Positions 1-59,972 of a DNA stretch of 59,972 bases are shown piece after piece (the first letter of the stretch is position 1; the number at the start of each line of letters is the position of its first letter). Under the pieces are notes generated by a model. It made no database searches. It saw only the letters and a list, made by a program, of their open reading frames with translations, and was not told the origin of the DNA. This stretch comes from a virus (taxonomy: Duplodnaviria > Caudoviricetes): positions 1-59,972 of IMG/VR virus record IMGVR_UViG_3300043219_000134; one strand, 5' to 3'. The position numbers and the translations under genes were made by a program.

Positions 1-187
1 TTCTAAGGTAGGCACTATAAAGTCTTTTTGACTTTAAAAAAGTTACAAATTCCTGTTGTTCAGGGGTTAATTTTGATTTTTTATTTTTTAACACGTAGCG
101 CCTCCCAACGTAGTTTAAGCTTGTTTAACTCTTTGTCCAGTAGTAGACTTGCAGAACTTTCCGACAGTTTAATCGGGGGTTGACCCT
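1..187. repeat. Terminal direct repeat / circular assembly overlap, left copy
   Basis: Identical to 59786-59972 except at 128, 129 and 135. Confidence 0.95.
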
Positions 188-4338: not shown

Positions 4339-4390
4339 TTTTGTTCCCTTCGAGCTTGCCACAATGGACATTGATGTTGCACTCTTTCCT

Positions 4391-4433
4391 GTCTGCAATA
4401 GGGAGTCGAACCCTATACATAAACCATGCAGAT
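4391..4433 (-). ncRNA. tRNA-like minihelix
   Basis: TCTGCA...ATAGGG-TTCGACT-CCCTAT-TGCAGA on - strand, intergenic. Confidence 0.7.
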
Positions 4434-41026: not shown

Positions 41027-41225
41027 ACTCCTCGTCCTGTGTATGCTCTACTTCTAGAATCTCGTACTCTACTTCTAGAGTTTCGGCTTCTTCCTCTGGA
41101 CTGAGGGTTAAGTCTGGGCTGAACCCTTCTGGGTTGTAATCAACCTTTCTCCCCCGTCCGAATAATAAATATAGAGAACCAAAAAGTCCTCCCGTTAATA
41201 ATAATATAATAATAAATTGTGTCAT
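40860..41225 (-). CDS. N-terminally anchored acidic membrane protein
   Basis: N-terminal TM; overlaps next gene by 167 bp. Confidence 0.7.
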   Translation of the reverse strand: MTQFIIILLLTGGLFGSLYLLFGRGRKVDYNPEGFSPDLTLSPEEEAETLEVEYEILEVEHTQDEEFENNVTKIKEETSLMSPIDLADDINSFYGVDKPERDITVTDDKSKFDWENNPSKE

Positions 41226-42193
41226 TCTTTATCCTCCAACGCTCTTAACCCCATAATACTAGGGTTTGCTAACTGATTTACCCATGATGGGTATCCTTCA
41301 CCTAGTGTAGAGGATAACTCCAGAGTCATAGTGGGTTCTTGTGGTGTTGGGTTAACTTTTTCTGGACTACATATCATTGTTGTAGCCTTATCTGTAAAGT
41401 ATTTAGATTGGCATTCCCTAGCTTCTTCAATAGTATCGAAGCTTTTTATAATTCTACCTGTAGTCTCACAAATTTCTTTTGCTTCTAAAAGACCTAGTCC
41501 TGTGGCTTCTCTTATCGCTTTAATAAGGGGTATTTTACCATTTTCCTGATAATTAACAAATAGTAGGTCAAACTTTTCTTCTTCTTTCTTAGTTTCAATT
41601 TTAGTTGCAGATTCCGGTTCAGACATTACCGTTCCGGCTGTACTTTGAATTAGGGCTAGCTTTTGTATATGTTTTTCTTCCGAGAAGGAAAATACTTTTA
41701 GGATATCTTCTACTGATGGAACGTCCCAAAACCAAGGATGGTAAAAAGAGTATTCTCCGGTAGACACTTTACAAGTAGATACTAATCTTTTATCGCCTGT
41801 CCCTTTATAGTAAAGTGTTCCTCGTACTTCATTAGATAGCATTCCAGCTGGTCTATGCTCATTCCGTCTGGGAGAACTTGTAGATAGTCTACGAAGGATT
41901 ACTCCTACGGGTACGTCCTTGTCCTCTTTTTTATTAGTAGAGTCGTCTCCAATATCATTAGATACTCGATGATAGTCTCTGTGTTGAAGACGGAATGTTT
42001 TTGCATTAGCCATTTTTAGAAAGATGTTTGATAGGTAGCCGTTGTGACAATCTACGTTAACCTGTTGACTAACTTTATGAACCGCTTTTTGATCTGGGGT
42101 GAGTTCTTTTACCCAAGGGAACGAGTTCATGAAGTCTGTAGAGATTTTATGTAGATACTCTGCAAGTTCCCTGTACTGCTCTGTTTCTCTCAT
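41222..42193 (-). CDS. Protein with C-terminal ribosomal bL12 (L7/L12) CTD-like domain
   Basis: EEEKFDLLF...KIPLIKAIREATGLGLLEAKEICE. Confidence 0.75.
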   Translation of the reverse strand: MRETEQYRELAEYLHKISTDFMNSFPWVKELTPDQKAVHKVSQQVNVDCHNGYLSNIFLKMANAKTFRLQHRDYHRVSNDIGDDSTNKKEDKDVPVGVILRRLSTSSPRRNEHRPAGMLSNEVRGTLYYKGTGDKRLVSTCKVSTGEYSFYHPWFWDVPSVEDILKVFSFSEEKHIQKLALIQSTAGTVMSEPESATKIETKKEEEKFDLLFVNYQENGKIPLIKAIREATGLGLLEAKEICETTGRIIKSFDTIEEARECQSKYFTDKATTMICSPEKVNPTPQEPTMTLELSSTLGEGYPSWVNQLANPSIMGLRALEDKE

Positions 42194-53662: not shown

Positions 53663-53742
53663 TCTTGAGCCTCCTAAATAATTGGATTTAGTCGCCTATG
53701 CAACTAAAGAAAGAGAGCCTGTCGTCGAAAACTGCTCTCTAA

Positions 53743-53789
53743 ACTACTAGTGGGGACTCGAACCCCATGTACTCCACCGTTCTAGTAGT
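53743..53789 (-). ncRNA. tRNA-like minihelix
   Basis: ACTACTAG...TGGGG-TTCGAGT-CCCCA-CTAGTAGT. Confidence 0.7.
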
Positions 53790-53841
53790 AGTGATTACCT
53801 TTTCACGTTTGTATTCATCCGAGGGAGGTATACCCTCTATG

Positions 53842-53882
53842 GGAAAAGGCGGAATCGAACCGCCGATTAAAAACCTTATTCC
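53842..53882 (-). ncRNA. tRNA-like minihelix
   Basis: GGAATA...GGCGG-TTCGATT-CCGCC-TTTTCC. Confidence 0.65.
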
Positions 53883-53883
53883 G

Positions 53884-54306
53884 TTAAATCTTTTTTACGA
53901 GTGTAATTAAAAAAGTTGAGCTACCAAACCATTGTTCCTCAAAATTCCTTGCTTCTTTTTCTGTAGCAAAGGTTTTTATTGTTGAAGGGACTGCTTCAAC
54001 AAGATCTTTTGCTTCTTTAAGACCAAGACCAGTTGCTCCACGAATAACTTTAAGTGTAGGAATTATCATTCCATCAGTGAACTTTACAAATCTCACAGCC
54101 CACTCTTCTCTAAAAGTTGGGTTGTCTACTGCGGGTAAGTCTTCCTCTTTAATTACTTTACGAGTTAACGTAATGTCGTACTCTGAACTAAGTAGTTCTG
54201 CGTATTTTAAGGTGCTTTTTAAAGATACACAAAATGTAGCTATAGAGTCCAGTTCAGTTCTGTCTCTAAGTTTTACTAATTCATCTTTTATTTCGTTTGT
54301 TGTCAT
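53884..54306 (-). CDS. Protein with ribosomal bL12 (L7/L12) CTD-like domain
   Basis: IPTLKVIRGATGLGLKEAKDLVEAVPSTIK...EKEA. Confidence 0.8.
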   Translation of the reverse strand: MTTNEIKDELVKLRDRTELDSIATFCVSLKSTLKYAELLSSEYDITLTRKVIKEEDLPAVDNPTFREEWAVRFVKFTDGMIIPTLKVIRGATGLGLKEAKDLVEAVPSTIKTFATEKEARNFEEQWFGSSTFLITLVKKI

Positions 54307-55467: not shown

Positions 55468-55483
55468 AACTACCTCCTTTATG

Positions 55484-55525
55484 GAGAAAATGGGAATCGA
55501 ACCCAAACTTATGTACCAACTTCTC
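55484..55525 (-). ncRNA. tRNA-like minihelix
   Basis: GAGAAG...TGGG-TTCGATT-CCCA-TTTTCTC. Confidence 0.65.
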
Positions 55526-55715
55526 TAAATGCAAACTTAAGCAATTCTATAGATACTACGTAACCTTCATAACCTTCTGCGCTTATATATACAGTAGTAG
55601 TTTCTTCAATGCTTATTATTTTGTCTATACTCATTTTAGTCCCTTTAGGAACATCTTCTCGTCTTGCTCTAGACGAGTCTGGTTCTAATACCATGTCATA
55701 TTTTGCTTCAAACAT
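55509..55715 (-). CDS. Hypothetical protein
   Basis: 68-aa ORF with AAGGAG SD. Confidence 0.7.
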   Translation of the reverse strand: MFEAKYDMVLEPDSSRARREDVPKGTKMSIDKIISIEETTTVYISAEGYEGYVVSIELLKFAFREVGT

Positions 55716-55731
55716 TATTTACTCCTTTATT

Positions 55732-55774
55732 AGTCAAGGGGGAGTCGAACCCCCACTAGATCACCAGATTAACT
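55732..55774 (-). ncRNA. tRNA-like minihelix
   Basis: AGTTAA...GGGGG-TTCGACT-CCCCC-TTGACT. Confidence 0.7.
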
Positions 55775-56094
55775 TAAGTATAGAACTCAATACCTTCTGG
55801 AAGGTCTAAGCCCATTGCTTTACCAGTTGCAATGATAACTTTGAACAACTCGTTCAAATCATCCGTTGCAAACTCTTCGGTTAGCTCCGGTGTAAGAAGT
55901 GCCTTCGGTGCGAATCTAAAAGCAAGGTTTCTCACTTCTTTTTCGTTCTGAAACTTCACCTCGATAGGTGCATTGTCCCCTAACTGAACTGTAACAATTG
56001 CACTGCAAGCGTTGTTACTTAAAACTTTCTTTGCAGGGATTGATGAATTACCACCACCAATTGGCTCTCTTGTATTTAATACTCTAATTTCCAT
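55774..56094 (-). CDS. Hypothetical protein
   Basis: 106-aa ORF with AGGAG SD. Confidence 0.75.
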   Translation of the reverse strand: MEIRVLNTREPIGGGNSSIPAKKVLSNNACSAIVTVQLGDNAPIEVKFQNEKEVRNLAFRFAPKALLTPELTEEFATDDLNELFKVIIATGKAMGLDLPEGIEFYT

Positions 56095-56102
56095 TTTGTC
56101 TC

Positions 56103-57151: not shown

Positions 57152-57193
57152 AAGTTCTCCTTTTATTTTTTATTTCCTGTCTATACAGGATAA

Positions 57194-57233
57194 AGCAACA
57201 AGGGGAGTCGAACCCCTCCAATACCTTTTTGCT
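57194..57233 (-). ncRNA. tRNA-like minihelix
   Basis: AGCAAAA...AGGGG-TTCGACT-CCCCT-TGTTGCT. Confidence 0.7.
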
Positions 57234-57489
57234 AACTGCTCTCACTAGCTTGATTTGCTTTTAGTTTTTCTAATCTCTCTTCTAAATCAGCTATTTCGTT
57301 CTGTATTAATTCTGACTCAGTAAATCTCTTCTGTGCATCATACCGCATGGAACCACCTGTTTCACCCATTTCCTGTACTACTAAATGGGTTGCCCCGTTT
57401 TCTTTAGCAGATTTAAGAAAGGTTATAATTTCATCTATAGGGTTTTGACAACTACCTGTAAATATATTTACAGTCTTACTAAAATTCAT
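57232..57489 (-). CDS. Hypothetical protein
   Basis: Start at MNFSK after AAGGAG. Confidence 0.75.
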   Translation of the reverse strand: MNFSKTVNIFTGSCQNPIDEIITFLKSAKENGATHLVVQEMGETGGSMRYDAQKRFTESELIQNEIADLEERLEKLKANQASESS

Positions 57490-57539
57490 ATTGTCTCCTT
57501 TTATTCTTAAAGCAACGGGGCAGTTTGACCCACCCAAGA

Positions 57540-58768
57540 AACTCTTTTGTCTCTCTGAACATCCCCGAAGGGACTTCGCGTCACTATTTATTTAGAAGTA
57601 TTTTTGTTAATTTTATTTAGCTTCGTGCTTAAGTAATAGTGCTCGCTTATGGTATGGCGCTTTCATCGGGGTCTAAGTGGGGAATCATTCCTGATTTCCA
57701 TATCGCCAAGGTTGCTAATCCCTGTTGTGCGCCTTTCTATATTTGACCTTCAACTACTATTACTCCCCTTCCTTTACGACAGGTGTATTTTAATAAACAA
57801 TACTTTTGTCTTCGGCATGGGGCACATGACCAGATTTCTTACCGTCTGGCTTGGTCGAGTCACTTCTGACTCGTAACACATTGGTAGGTTGAGAAAGTCC
57901 TCGAGATTACTTATCGCCCATAAGGACTATAAATTGGTAATCTTTTTAACTCAACAGTAGTTTCAAGCATTCTGGAATTGTCTGTTCCTAGAATAACTAT
58001 CATGCAAATAGACTATCTTAAAGCAGTAATATGTTCTTTTCCACCGACTCTCACGGCTACCCACTTCGTCTACAAGCGACCTTTTTGTCCACGGGGTATT
58101 ACCCCGATTCGTGTTTGGGTTTCCTAGTCCCTCAACCGCGCAAGCCTTACTCTCACACTCTTTGCGGTTTCTACCTGCCAGTTAATATTTCAATGATCTA
58201 AACCACCTACTACTAAATATCTGACTCTGTCCATGCGACTGTAGAATATATCTCAATTCCATCTCGCCCCGTCTTGGACTTAATTATTTATTGGGCTATA
58301 TCTCGTCCCGTAGTGTTCACTGATTATACTGGTTGAACTCCCAGATTTAGACTTGTGTAATATAAGCCTGAAAGGGTTAACTTGGCTTTGAACCATAATC
58401 TATAACTGCACTATAAATAGGGTCATATTTCCGTGACTGAATTTGTCTAGTTCAGGCGTGTCTATAAATAGTGTCGGTTACAATTAAATTAACCTTAAGA
58501 GTGTACCGGATGCTTTGATACTAAGTCGCCGATTACTCTCGCCTTTAAATAAATACCCCACTCTATTAGGATAAGTTTGTTAATTAACTAGTCAGCAGAA
58601 GGGGTATCAATCCCAAAATAGACCTGTACGAGATACGATCGGGTTTGACCCTAGTGACACCCCCTTGGACTCACTCGCTCTCTTGGACTCTTTATTATTT
58701 ACCCATGATAACCACCTCCCATTCTTTGTTCTACAACAATGTGTTGTGCAAGTAACCTCTATTAGATA
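57540..58768 (-). ncRNA. Candidate large structured RNA / 1.2-kb leader
   Basis: No sense ORF of 60 aa or more; many hairpins; promoter directly upstream. Confidence 0.55.
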
Positions 58769-58774
58769 CTTACA

Positions 58775-58803
58775 ACTTTAACATGGGGTTAAAAGGTTGT
58801 CAA
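58775..58803 (-). promoter_or_regulatory. Sigma70-type promoter
   Basis: TTGACA-17 bp-TAAAGT with TG extension and AT-rich upstream tract. Confidence 0.8.
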
Positions 58804-58910
58804 GGACTTTTTTTAAAAGTTCAATGGTTTTGCTATTTAACAGGATACTATTTGCAACCTGTTAAAGTCCAATAGAGTATTTAACAACTCTACTTAGGTA
58901 TTCTATAGGG

Positions 58911-59285
58911 TTAACTTAAACCTGTCAACTCTTTTTGTATTTTATTTTGCATTTCTTTTTTCCAGATTATTCTGTAAGACATTTTATAGTTCTCATTTAA
59001 GAACTTATAGAAAGATGGCTTACAAATAGTCTGTTCTGTGAATGTTCCTGTGTATTGCTCCGCACAATATTCATTTATGAAGCGTACCAGAGCTTTTAAC
59101 TGAGAGTAACCATTACTATAATATATATTTGCTACAATAACTAATCGAAATCTATCATGTTTATATACATATGCCTCAGTTATATTTTTATCCTGCCTAG
59201 CTAAGACTAATTTTATTATACCTTTACCATCCAGAGTGTCAGTAATAGCATAACGATTCATAGTATGTTTAATTTTCTCAATCAT
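58911..59285 (-). CDS. Hypothetical protein
   Basis: 124-aa ORF, GGAGG SD. Confidence 0.7.
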   Translation of the reverse strand: MIEKIKHTMNRYAITDTLDGKGIIKLVLARQDKNITEAYVYKHDRFRLVIVANIYYSNGYSQLKALVRFINEYCAEQYTGTFTEQTICKPSFYKFLNENYKMSYRIIWKKEMQNKIQKELTGLS

Positions 59286-59623: not shown

Positions 59624-59879
59624 GTTGAATCCTTCGCCATTCATTACAGACTTTATTCCAGATTGAAAAATCAATGTCGGACTCCCCCCAGTCAATTTGA
59701 TCTACCCAACTAGATACATCGCGGTATGATTCAAAGACCTCTTTTAAACAGGTAGCTTCAAAAAAGACACCATCAGGTTTAAAACTTCTAAGGTAGGCAC
59801 TATAAAGTCTTTTTGACTTTAAAAAAGTTACAAATTCCTGTTGTTCAGGGGTTAATTTTGATTTTTTATTTTTTAACAC
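59604..59879 (-). CDS. Hypothetical protein
   Basis: 91 aa; follows gene 81-707 across the circular junction. Confidence 0.7.
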   Translation of the reverse strand: MLKNKKSKLTPEQQEFVTFLKSKRLYSAYLRSFKPDGVFFEATCLKEVFESYRDVSSWVDQIDWGESDIDFSIWNKVCNEWRRIQHEKAKP

Positions 59880-59972
59880 GTAGCGCCTCCCAACGTAGTT
59901 TAAGCTTGTTTAGTTCTTTATCCAGTAGTAGACTTGCAGAACTTTCCGACAGTTTAATCGGGGGTTGACCCT
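59786..59972. repeat. Terminal direct repeat / circular assembly overlap, right copy
   Basis: Matches 1-187 with 3 substitutions. Confidence 0.95.

What the first reader, a model, noticed from the sequence alone, without database searches (positions are those of the whole stretch)
57540..58803. About 1.2 kb of hairpin-dense non-coding sequence behind a strong promoter, candidate large ncRNA
Seen: in a gene-dense genome, TTGACA-17-TAAAGT is followed by about 1,280 nt with no credible sense ORF before the ATG at 57489. The - strand is purine-rich with many stems, e.g. GAGTCA-GAAG-TGACTC (57857-57872), CGGGGT-AAT-ACCCCG (58092-58106), CCAGA...TCTGG (57830-57849), GTCAC-GGAAAT-ATGAC (58422-58437), GTCCC-TTCG-GGGAT (57561-57574), and AGTCCT/AGGACT interleaved with GATTAC/GTAATC (57896-57942, pseudoknot-like). 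Established: GOLLD and ROOL are large structured phage RNAs, GOLLD often near tRNA genes; here the neighbours are tRNA mimics. Inference: a member of those classes, a new class, or an antitermination leader.
Basis: partly seen in the sequence, partly recalled or inferred. Interest (0 to 1): 0.78.

Follow-up and report, generated by a model that had tools for sequence, protein, structure and literature searches.

The report
New large structured phage RNA
A marine-sediment phage carries a gene-free stretch of about 1.25 kb that appears to make a large folded RNA of a class not catalogued in Rfam, conserved in the one related phage found better than the genes around it.

Summary
The gene-free stretch is real. 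Behind TTGACA-17-TAAAGT (58803-58775, - strand) lies the longest ORF-free run of this 60-kb phage genome. It is unreadable under four genetic codes, has no protein-family remnants and no credible small ORFs.

One related IMG/VR contig (L012, TerL 92% aa) settles the main point. It has an ORF-free homologue at the same place behind the same promoter.

- The core (window 58404-57587) is 69.9% identical. Five flanking early genes are 50-62% identical.
- The core has identical runs of 36 and 32 nt and shows no codon periodicity.
- Of 32 base pairs predicted from the window sequence alone that changed on both sides in L012, 27 still pair. A permutation null gives 13.5±2.7 (0 of 2000 reach 27).
- The - strand fold is kept better than the + strand fold.

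Neither copy gives an Rfam hit, so it is not GOLLD, ROOL, an intron or tmRNA.

My reading is a new class of large structured phage RNA. It has a conserved 3' core of about 0.8 kb and a variable 5' domain, and it ends at a tRNA-like module. The function is unknown, and a leader or a replication-primer role is not excluded. The evidence rests on two sequences and no expression data.

The parts
58900..58928 (-). Upstream promoter-like site P1 (TTGACA-17-TAGAAT), overlapping the end of gene 58911-59285
   Evidence: 11 of 12 matches. An equivalent TTGACA-17-TAAATT is seen in L012.
58839..58863 (-). Conserved hairpin between P1 and P2 (AACAGG...CCTGTT). L012 has AACAAG...CTTGTT, a two-sided change that keeps the pair.
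   Evidence: alignment A5
58775..58803 (-). Promoter P2 (TTGACA-17-TAAAGT with TG before the -10), conserved in L012 as TTGACA-17-TAACTT. The transcript start is inferred near 58768.
   Evidence: No expression data.
58405..58768 (-). Variable 5' domain of about 365 nt. L012 has only about 60 nt here. It holds a 3-codon mini-ORF (ATG at 58706) behind a GGGAGGTG Shine-Dalgarno-like site.
57587..58404 (-). Conserved structured core (about 820 nt here, about 735 nt in L012). It is 69.9% identical to L012. Conserved blocks alternate with hairpins whose stems differ but still pair.
58177..58225 (-). Three-part hairpin with a conserved UUAG loop. Both sequences fold to the same shape independently, and 3 pairs are changed on both sides.
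   Evidence: helices H9-H11
58092..58106 (-). Hairpin CGGGGT-AAT-ACCCCG. L012 has a hairpin of unrelated sequence (AGAGAGTA...TACTCTT) at the same place between conserved blocks.
   Evidence: H15
57894..58083 (-). Long-range helix (58083-58073 with 57903-57894, 10 pairs, nearly invariant). It encloses a variable insert of 169 nt here and 122 nt in L012. It lies inside a second invariant helix, 58175-58171 with 57887-57883.
   Evidence: H12, H16. Invariant pairs give no covariation support.
57856..57873 (-). Hairpin CGAGTCA-GAAG-TGACTCG. L012 has CAAGTCT-GTAG-AGACTTG (2 pairs changed on both sides).
   Evidence: H21
57766..57821 (-). Nested hairpin of the same shape in both sequences. The inner stem is GTATT/AATAC here and TGCAC/GTGCA in L012.
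   Evidence: H22-H24
57635..57761 (-). 3' multi-branch domain closed by a 9-pair helix with 3 two-sided changes. It contains a hairpin with a GGAA loop (57699-57681, 2 two-sided changes).
   Evidence: H25-H30
57641..57676 (-). 36-nt block identical in both phages, mostly unpaired in the predicted fold. It is the longest identical run in any segment compared (TerL: 29).
57587..57618 (-). 32-nt A/U-rich block identical in both phages, predicted unpaired, directly before the tRNA-like module
57511..57585 (-). tRNA-like module TLS-A. Its minimum-energy fold is a four-arm cloverleaf of about 75 nt. The last hairpin plus its tail was also flagged as terminator-like. L012 has a smaller tRNA-like module with a canonical TTCGATT loop at the same place. 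The 5' acceptor strand GTGACG is invariant, and the 3' strands differ by one-sided changes that keep pairing.
   Evidence: Not called as a tRNA by ARAGORN. The fold z of -1.77 is not significant by itself.
57232..57489 (-). Small gene (85 aa from the ATG at 57489) that is absent from L012, so it is not part of the conserved unit
57194..57233 (-). tRNA-like minihelix TLS-B with a GGTTCGACTCC T-arm. It is the counterpart of the single L012 module.

Best explanation
The - strand of about 58768-57511 encodes a large structured non-coding RNA of a class not in Rfam.

**Anatomy.** The RNA has three parts:
- a length-variable 5' domain (about 365 nt here, about 60 nt in the relative);
- a conserved 3' core of about 0.8 kb, built of many hairpins and two long-range helices separated by strictly conserved unpaired blocks;
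- a tRNA-like module at the 3' end.

**Shown.**
- The stretch is non-coding.
- It is conserved above its neighbours.
- Its pairs are maintained by compensating changes.
- The - strand is the better-kept fold.
- It keeps its own sigma-70-type promoter in both phages.

**Inferred.**
- It is transcribed early from P2, and perhaps also from P1.
- Its 3' end is set at the tRNA-like module, either by RNase P/Z-type cleavage or by weak termination at the T-arm-like hairpin.
- It then acts as a free RNA. The conserved unpaired blocks would be sites for tertiary contacts, self-association or a host or phage partner, in the way GOLLD and ROOL are thought to work.

I have no evidence for the molecular target.
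For: **Non-coding**
- It is the longest ORF-free stretch of the genome.
- No long frame opens under code 11, code 4, TAG=Q or TAA=Q.
- A scan for a Shine-Dalgarno site plus a start codon gave 7 hits on the - strand. One is the true start at 57489. The other six have 12 codons or fewer.
- Of the 10 longest stop-to-stop frames, 0 hit Pfam at E<=1. Three hit PHROGs, but only at E 0.094-0.94.
- L012 has 23, 23 and 25 stops in its three frames of about 288 codons.
- Mismatches show no period of 3, unlike TerL and the portal gene.

**Homologue**
- A TerL search gave 3 IMG/VR loci, and 1 of the 3 records holds the region.
- L012 is colinear with the window and ORF-free at the same place.

**Conservation**
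- The core is 69.9% identical, against 50.1-62.2% for five flanking early genes. Its longest identical run is 36 nt.
- The two downstream proteins are only 39% and 44% identical.
- In a second marine-sediment study (run X2), contigs cover 57880-58168 with 15 other letters and 5 gaps. They cover 58139-58394 with 24 other letters and 5 gaps.

**Structure**
- The window's own minimum-energy fold of the core has 207 pairs. I projected it on L012 through a sequence-only alignment. Of 32 pairs changed on both sides, 27 are kept, against a null of 13.5±2.7 (0 of 2000).
- In that projection 81.6% of pairs are kept, against 59.6±3.1% (0 of 2000).
- RNAalifold predicts 166 pairs, 38 of them with two-sided changes.
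- Re-predicting on 40 column-shuffled alignments gives 10.7±3.4 such pairs (maximum 18), against 28 in the core (one search's companion test).
- Sliding the partners gives 1-6 such pairs, against 38.
- Hairpins between conserved anchors fold to the same shapes in both sequences independently.

**Strand**
- Pairs kept are 0.816 and 0.758 for the - strand, against 0.683 and 0.718 for the + strand.
- 38 of 331 consensus pair cells are G·U.

**Module behaviour**
- Promoter, RNA and tRNA-like end are kept together, while the downstream neighbour differs.
Against: - Only two full sequences exist, so no R-scape-type test is possible. The RNAalifold counts are biased towards covariation by construction.
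- The reverse test is weaker. With the L012 fold projected on the window, 20 of 33 two-sided changes are kept, against a null of 15.1±2.8 (P=0.055).
- Thermodynamic stability is not above shuffled sequence on the - strand.
- There is no expression evidence.
- No clean intrinsic terminator separates the RNA from the downstream genes. It could be the 5' part of a polycistronic early mRNA rather than a free RNA.
- The two long-range helices are invariant and therefore unsupported by covariation.
- Phage genomes are mosaics, so part of the higher identity could come from recent exchange.
Confidence: 0.6

Rival explanations
1. It is a structured 5' leader acting in cis on the early operon. It would control read-through, stability or translation of the downstream early genes, for example as an antitermination or processing leader, rather than acting as a free RNA.
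For: - It is on the same strand as the early genes and directly upstream of them.
- The only terminator-like sites behind it are the weak T-arm-like hairpins.
- Two tandem promoters precede it.
- The conserved structure fits a leader as well as a free RNA.
Against: - A conserved core of about 800 nt is far larger than the cis antitermination RNAs I recall, such as HK022 put at about 70 nt (recall, not tested here).
- The immediate downstream gene differs between the two phages: gene 57232-57489 is absent from L012. Gene-specific control is therefore unlikely.
- The RNA ends in its own tRNA-like module.
Confidence: 0.17
2. It is a replication origin with a structured primer transcript. A strong promoter would make a folded, purine-rich RNA that forms a persistent hybrid at the conserved 32-bp A/T-rich block and is extended by the phage PolA. 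This is analogous to ColE1 RNA II or the R-loop origins of T4 (both from recall).
For: - It is the largest non-coding region of the genome.
- Strong promoters point into it.
- A perfectly conserved 32-bp block of very high A+T sits at the 3' end of the structured part.
- The phage has a PolA.
- No primase family was found in the 20 proteins I scanned. That is not the whole proteome.
- Conserved RNA structure is also required of an RNA II-type primer.
Against: - No iterons or other repeats were found.
- The cumulative GC skew turns near 5-6 kb and 31 kb, following gene orientation, not at 57-58 kb.
- The tRNA-like end has no role in this model.
- The DUF3987-type helicase protein could carry an unrecognised primase domain.
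Confidence: 0.1
3. It is a non-functional spacer: a decayed gene or a leftover of recombination with no RNA function. The apparent structure would be chance or DNA-level palindromes.
For: - Folding energy is not better than shuffled sequence.
- Base composition equals that of the coding arm.
- The region sits in a mosaic early arm where small genes are swapped.
Against: - It is more conserved than all five flanking genes, with identical runs of 36 and 32 nt.
- 27 of 32 two-sided changes keep pairing, against 13.5 expected.
- There are no protein remnants.
- G·U pairs and better conservation of the - strand fold argue for RNA rather than duplex-DNA symmetry.
Confidence: 0.06
4. It is a diverged member of a catalogued RNA family (GOLLD, ROOL, group I or II intron, tmRNA, OLE, HEARO).
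For: The context resembles GOLLD and ROOL. It is phage-encoded, lies beside tRNA-like elements, and has a conserved 3' part and a variable 5' part, as described for GOLLD in passages of preprint 10.1101/2024.12.08.627333.
Against: - There are 0 Rfam matches at gathering score in the window.
- At E<=10 none of the 9 matches (window) or 5 matches (L012) lies in the core or belongs to these families.
- ARAGORN finds no tmRNA.
- No split flanking gene suggests an intron.
Confidence: 0.04

Closest known systems
GOLLD RNA (Rfam RF01998; accession from recall)
   Same: - It is a large RNA of about 0.8 kb or more, encoded by phages and found beside tRNA genes or islands.
[quoted passage not shown]
- Its function is unknown.

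These features come from passages of preprint 10.1101/2024.12.08.627333. Here there is a core of about 0.8 kb, a variable 5' domain and a tRNA-like module at the end.
   Different: - There is no sequence or structure match to the Rfam model, even at E<=10.
- It is found so far in one small lineage of marine-sediment phages.
- The neighbours are tRNA-like remnants, not working tRNA genes, in this window.
- Multimer formation is untested.
ROOL RNA (Rfam RF03087; accession from recall)
   Same: It is a phage- or prophage-encoded ornate RNA near tRNA islands with no known protein partner (passages).
   Different: There is no Rfam match. The RNA here is larger, about 820-1260 nt, against the roughly 580 nt I recall for ROOL.
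MALAT1-mascRNA type 3'-end formation and the mitochondrial 'tRNA punctuation' model (recalled, not tested)
   Same: A long non-coding RNA is followed directly by a tRNA-like fold that could be cut by RNase P. An A-rich conserved tract sits just before it.
   Different: Those are eukaryotic and organellar systems. No cleavage is shown here. The tRNA-like folds are not called by ARAGORN.
ColE1 RNA II primer and T4 R-loop origins (recalled)
   Same: A strong promoter drives a structured transcript of several hundred nt that ends at an A/T-rich conserved DNA block, in a genome with a PolA-type polymerase.
   Different: No antisense regulator, no origin repeats and no skew signal were found. The tRNA-like end is not a feature of those systems.

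Membership tests
GOLLD (Rfam) | Match to the family covariance model at or above its gathering score | tested here: not met
   0 matches in the window; no GOLLD match even at E<=10 in the window region or in L012.
GOLLD (Rfam) | Phage-encoded, beside tRNA genes, with a conserved 3' and a variable 5' region | tested here: met
   This is context only and does not establish membership.
GOLLD / ROOL | Homo-oligomeric RNA cage (cryo-EM) | not testable with these tools
   The feature is taken from passages of preprint 10.1101/2024.12.08.627333.
ROOL (Rfam) | Match to the family covariance model | tested here: not met
Group I / group II introns | Match to the intron models, and a host gene split by the element | tested here: not met
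   No Rfam match. The flanking genes are complete and end or start outside the region.
tmRNA / tRNA | ARAGORN call or Rfam match at gathering score | tested here: not met
   ARAGORN finds none in the window. The only Rfam hit is a 17-nt T-arm match to tmRNA at 57201-57217, at 14 bits against a gathering score of 47.
Structured non-coding RNA (general) | No coding potential | tested here: met
Structured non-coding RNA (general) | Base pairs maintained by compensating changes among homologues | tested here: met
   The evidence comes from only two sequences, and the reverse projection gives P=0.055.
Structured non-coding RNA (general) | A transcript of the predicted strand and ends | not testable with these tools
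   No RNA data were available (see Tried and rejected).
DGR template / CRISPR array / iteron origin | A second copy or repeats of the sequence | tested here: not met
   The region matches only itself in its genome. No repeat families beyond short two-copy matches were found.

The most novel reading that the evidence does not exclude
This is a third, unrelated class of giant 'ornate' phage RNA. Its covalently attached tRNA-like module and strictly conserved unpaired blocks would let it self-assemble or dock onto the translation machinery. It might work together with this phage's two proteins that carry ribosomal bL12 C-terminal domains and its many tRNA-like minihelices, to capture ribosomes or translation factors early in infection.
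Probability: 0.12. Interest if true: 0.9.

Novelty: new variant of a known kind. Interest (0 to 1): 0.68.

Why it matters
Very large structured bacterial and phage RNAs are rare. From recall, GOLLD, ROOL, OLE and a few others are the known classes, and their functions are largely unknown. A new, unrelated class would add an independent case for asking what such RNAs do for a phage.

This one has the same lifestyle as GOLLD and ROOL: it is phage-borne, sits beside tRNA-type elements, and has a conserved 3' core and a variable 5' part. It also has clear module boundaries (its own promoter and a tRNA-like end) that make it easy to clone, transcribe and image.

It also shows that such RNAs can hide in rare environmental phage lineages. 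A survey of IMG/VR that I read in passages found motifs of 29-151 nt and required three or more matched regions, so it would not report this RNA as a unit (PMC10690425).

Tried and rejected
**Alternative genetic codes.** Code 4, TAG=Q and TAA=Q open no frame across the region.

**Protein remnants.** The 10 longest stop-to-stop frames gave nothing significant against Pfam or PHROGs.

**Sponge for a GGA-binding protein.** GGA density is 15.6 per kb here, against 17.8 per kb in the coding arm.

**Antisense regulator.** The conserved blocks have only scattered 10-nt complements elsewhere in the genome.

**Repeats, iterons, DGR or CRISPR.** None found.

**Searches for more homologues that found nothing useful**
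- blastn against GenBank phages and tblastn of P0002 against the same collection.
- Protein-seeded scans of viral contigs and with PolA, which gave only 28-29% relatives.
- A scan with alignment A4, which found only the L012 contig.
- Genome contigs and metagenome contigs.
- DNA pattern scans. One search gave 2 stretches, the L012 contig and L015. One search gave 1, the L012 contig. One search gave 2, L017 and L018.
- L015, L017 and L018 are chance matches. They have no other similarity, their GC is 44-66%, and L015 lies inside a 1065-aa ORF.
- Our own scan's index holds no look-alike.

**Expression.** No RNA holder is listed for this stretch, so nothing can be said about expression.

**Cover in run X2.** Cover is next to nil over 58384-58649. 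A part without cover is no finding. I note only that it coincides with the 5' domain that L012 lacks.

**Joints.** The joints skipping 57190-57508 and 58936-59284 have 'between: not known'. I read them only as a hint that the small flanking genes are replaced or diverged in variants.

**Papers.** For that paper and for preprint 10.1101/2024.12.08.627333 I saw the search listing and passages only. My two paper searches are not enough to claim that this RNA is not in print.

**Not run.** Complex prediction, structure prediction and the protein atlas were not relevant to an RNA.
Full report
**What the window is.** The window is a whole IMG/VR virus record of 59,972 bp. Its first 187 bases repeat its last 187 at 98% identity, so the genome is circular or terminally redundant. 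It comes from a marine-sediment metagenome. It encodes a large terminase and a PolA-type polymerase. Its nearest GenBank terminase is only 35% identical, so this is a poorly sampled phage lineage. The finding lies in the arm of - strand genes, most of which have no known family.

**The observation.**
- TTGACA-17-TAAAGT with an extended -10 is at 58803-58775 on the - strand. A second good promoter-like site is at 58928-58900.
- From there to the ATG at 57489 the - strand has only four ORFs of 30-38 aa. None has a Shine-Dalgarno site. The only starts with such a site, apart from the real gene start, open frames of 1 to 12 codons.
- The stretch 57877-58910 is the longest in the genome without any ORF of 60 aa or more on either strand: 1034 nt, against 423 nt for the runner-up.
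- Reading TGA, TAG or TAA as sense does not open a frame.
- The ten longest stop-to-stop frames have no Pfam or meaningful PHROG match.

So the non-coding gap is real and exceptional.

Seventeen 150-nt windows on the - strand have z-scores between -2.35 and +1.42. The 798-nt core has z = -0.79. The purine content equals that of the coding arm. The stems that were listed exist, but stems of that kind are expected by chance.

**Known families.** Rfam 15 gives no match at gathering score in the whole window. With permissive filters and E<=10 it gives nothing inside the region. ARAGORN finds no tRNA or tmRNA. The region matches only itself in its genome and has no repeat families.

**Finding a relative.**
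- The two small flanking proteins have almost no relatives.
- Scans seeded with them found nothing.
- A scan with the large terminase gave three related IMG/VR contigs. One of them, fetched whole as L012 (18,145 bp, TerL 92% aa), reaches into the early arm and holds the region.
- Three DNA pattern scans with the best conserved blocks and one further protein scan found no other true homologue (chance matches rejected).
- Contigs of a second marine-sediment study (run X2) also carry close variants of the core, 91-95% alike over 57880-58394. Their letters could not be retrieved.

**What the comparison shows.** L012 is colinear with the window. At the same place, behind the same two promoters, it has an ORF-free stretch of about 1 kb.

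The window's 826-nt core segment (58404-57579, which runs into the first strand of the tRNA-like module) aligns with 734 nt of L012 at 69.9% identity. Five flanking early genes align at 50-62%, and their proteins are 39-44% identical where tested. The core contains perfectly identical runs of 36 and 32 nt, longer than any in TerL.

Mismatches are clustered and show no period of three, unlike TerL and the portal gene. Both versions are full of stops in all frames.

The pattern is the one expected of a structured RNA. Invariant blocks alternate with segments that differ in sequence and length yet fold, each on its own, into hairpins of the same shape at the same place. Two examples:
- 58106-58092 has a stem of completely different sequence in L012.
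- 58169-58134 is a helix with a 26-nt tip here and a 4-nt loop in L012.

**Statistics of the pairing.** RNAalifold predicts 166 pairs, 38 of them changed on both sides and still paired. That count is biased by the method, so I added controls.
- Forty column-shuffled alignments, re-predicted, give 10.7±3.4 such pairs (maximum 18) against 28 in the core. Their consensus energy is -56±4 against -112 kcal/mol.
- Sliding the partners by 1-3 columns gives 1-6 such pairs against 38.
- The least biased test predicts the fold from the window sequence alone and projects it on L012 through a sequence-only alignment. Of 32 pairs changed on both sides, 27 are still standard pairs, against a permutation null of 13.5±2.7 (0 of 2000). 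Overall 81.6% of pairs survive, against 59.6±3.1%.
- The reverse projection is weaker: 20 of 33 (P=0.055), and 75.8% against 65.6% (0 of 2000).
- The - strand fold is kept better than the + strand fold (0.816 and 0.758 against 0.683 and 0.718). In addition, 38 of 331 pair cells are G·U. Both agree with the promoter direction.

With two sequences this is good but not conclusive evidence. The two long-range helices never vary and so are unsupported.

**Anatomy.** From 5' to 3' on the - strand:
- P1 (58928-58900).
- A conserved hairpin (58863-58839).
- P2 (58803-58775).
- A 5' domain of about 365 nt. L012 reduces it to about 60 nt.
- The core (58404-57587), with its 36-nt and 32-nt invariant blocks near the 3' end.
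- A tRNA-like module. In the window it folds as a four-arm cloverleaf (57585-57511). In L012 it is a smaller fold with a canonical T-loop.

The window then has an extra small gene (57489-57232) and a second minihelix (57233-57194). L012 lacks the gene. Promoter, RNA and tRNA-like end therefore behave as one module.

T-arm-like elements recur between early genes. At one of these places L012 has a true tRNA-Cys, where the window keeps only a decayed remnant with an intact T arm. The 'tRNA mimics' thus look like a decaying tRNA island. That is the context reported for GOLLD and ROOL (passages).

**How it may work.** I commit to a free, large structured RNA made early, with its 3' end set at the tRNA-like module. 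It would act through its conserved unpaired blocks on itself or on a partner. I give this 0.6. The steps after 'conserved structured RNA on the - strand' are inference.

The rivals are:
- a cis-acting leader of the early operon (0.17);
- an origin with an RNA II-like primer (0.10), suggested by the invariant A/T-rich block, the PolA and the lack of a recognised primase in the 20 proteins I scanned;
- a non-functional spacer (0.06);
- a diverged member of a catalogued family (0.04).

**Verdict.** It is a new variant of a known kind, the large ornate phage RNAs, and I score its interest at 0.68.

Noticed in passing
window 1-187 and 59786-59972: The two ends of the record repeat each other at 98.4% identity (3 mismatches in 187). 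The genome is therefore circular or terminally redundant, and about 59.8 kb long.
   Followed up: partly
window 4385-4432, 53700-53900 (two), 55728-55772, 57194-57233, 57511-57585, all - strand: tRNA-like minihelices with GGTTCGAnTCC-type T arms sit between early genes. The pattern gave 5 matches against 0.49 expected. They may punctuate the early transcripts for RNase P/Z-type processing or act as weak terminators.
   Followed up: partly
window 55470-55570 (-) and L012 611-683 (-): L012 has a tRNA-Cys called by ARAGORN. The window has at the same place a diverged remnant with a 17-nt insertion that keeps only the T arm and is not called as a tRNA.
   Followed up: partly
window 58695-58722 (-): A three-codon mini-ORF (Met-Gly-Lys-stop) lies 9 nt behind a strong GGGAGGTG site in the variable 5' domain. 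It is not present in L012.
   Followed up: no
window 57190-57508, 58936-59284, 55773-56101: Contigs of related strains in both sediment runs align on either side of small early genes but not across them (joints with 'between: not known'). This suggests that small early genes are swapped or diverge fast, while the intergenic elements are kept.
   Followed up: no
window 41222-42193 and 53884-54306 (-): Both proteins match the Pfam ribosomal L7/L12 C-terminal domain above its cut-off (41.0 and 45.6 bits against 25.9).
   Followed up: partly
window 57445-57474 (+): A promoter-like site, TTGACA-18-TACAGT, on the opposite strand inside gene 57232-57489 points into the RNA region. The + strand of the core folds with z = -2.31. 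An antisense transcript is not excluded.
   Followed up: no
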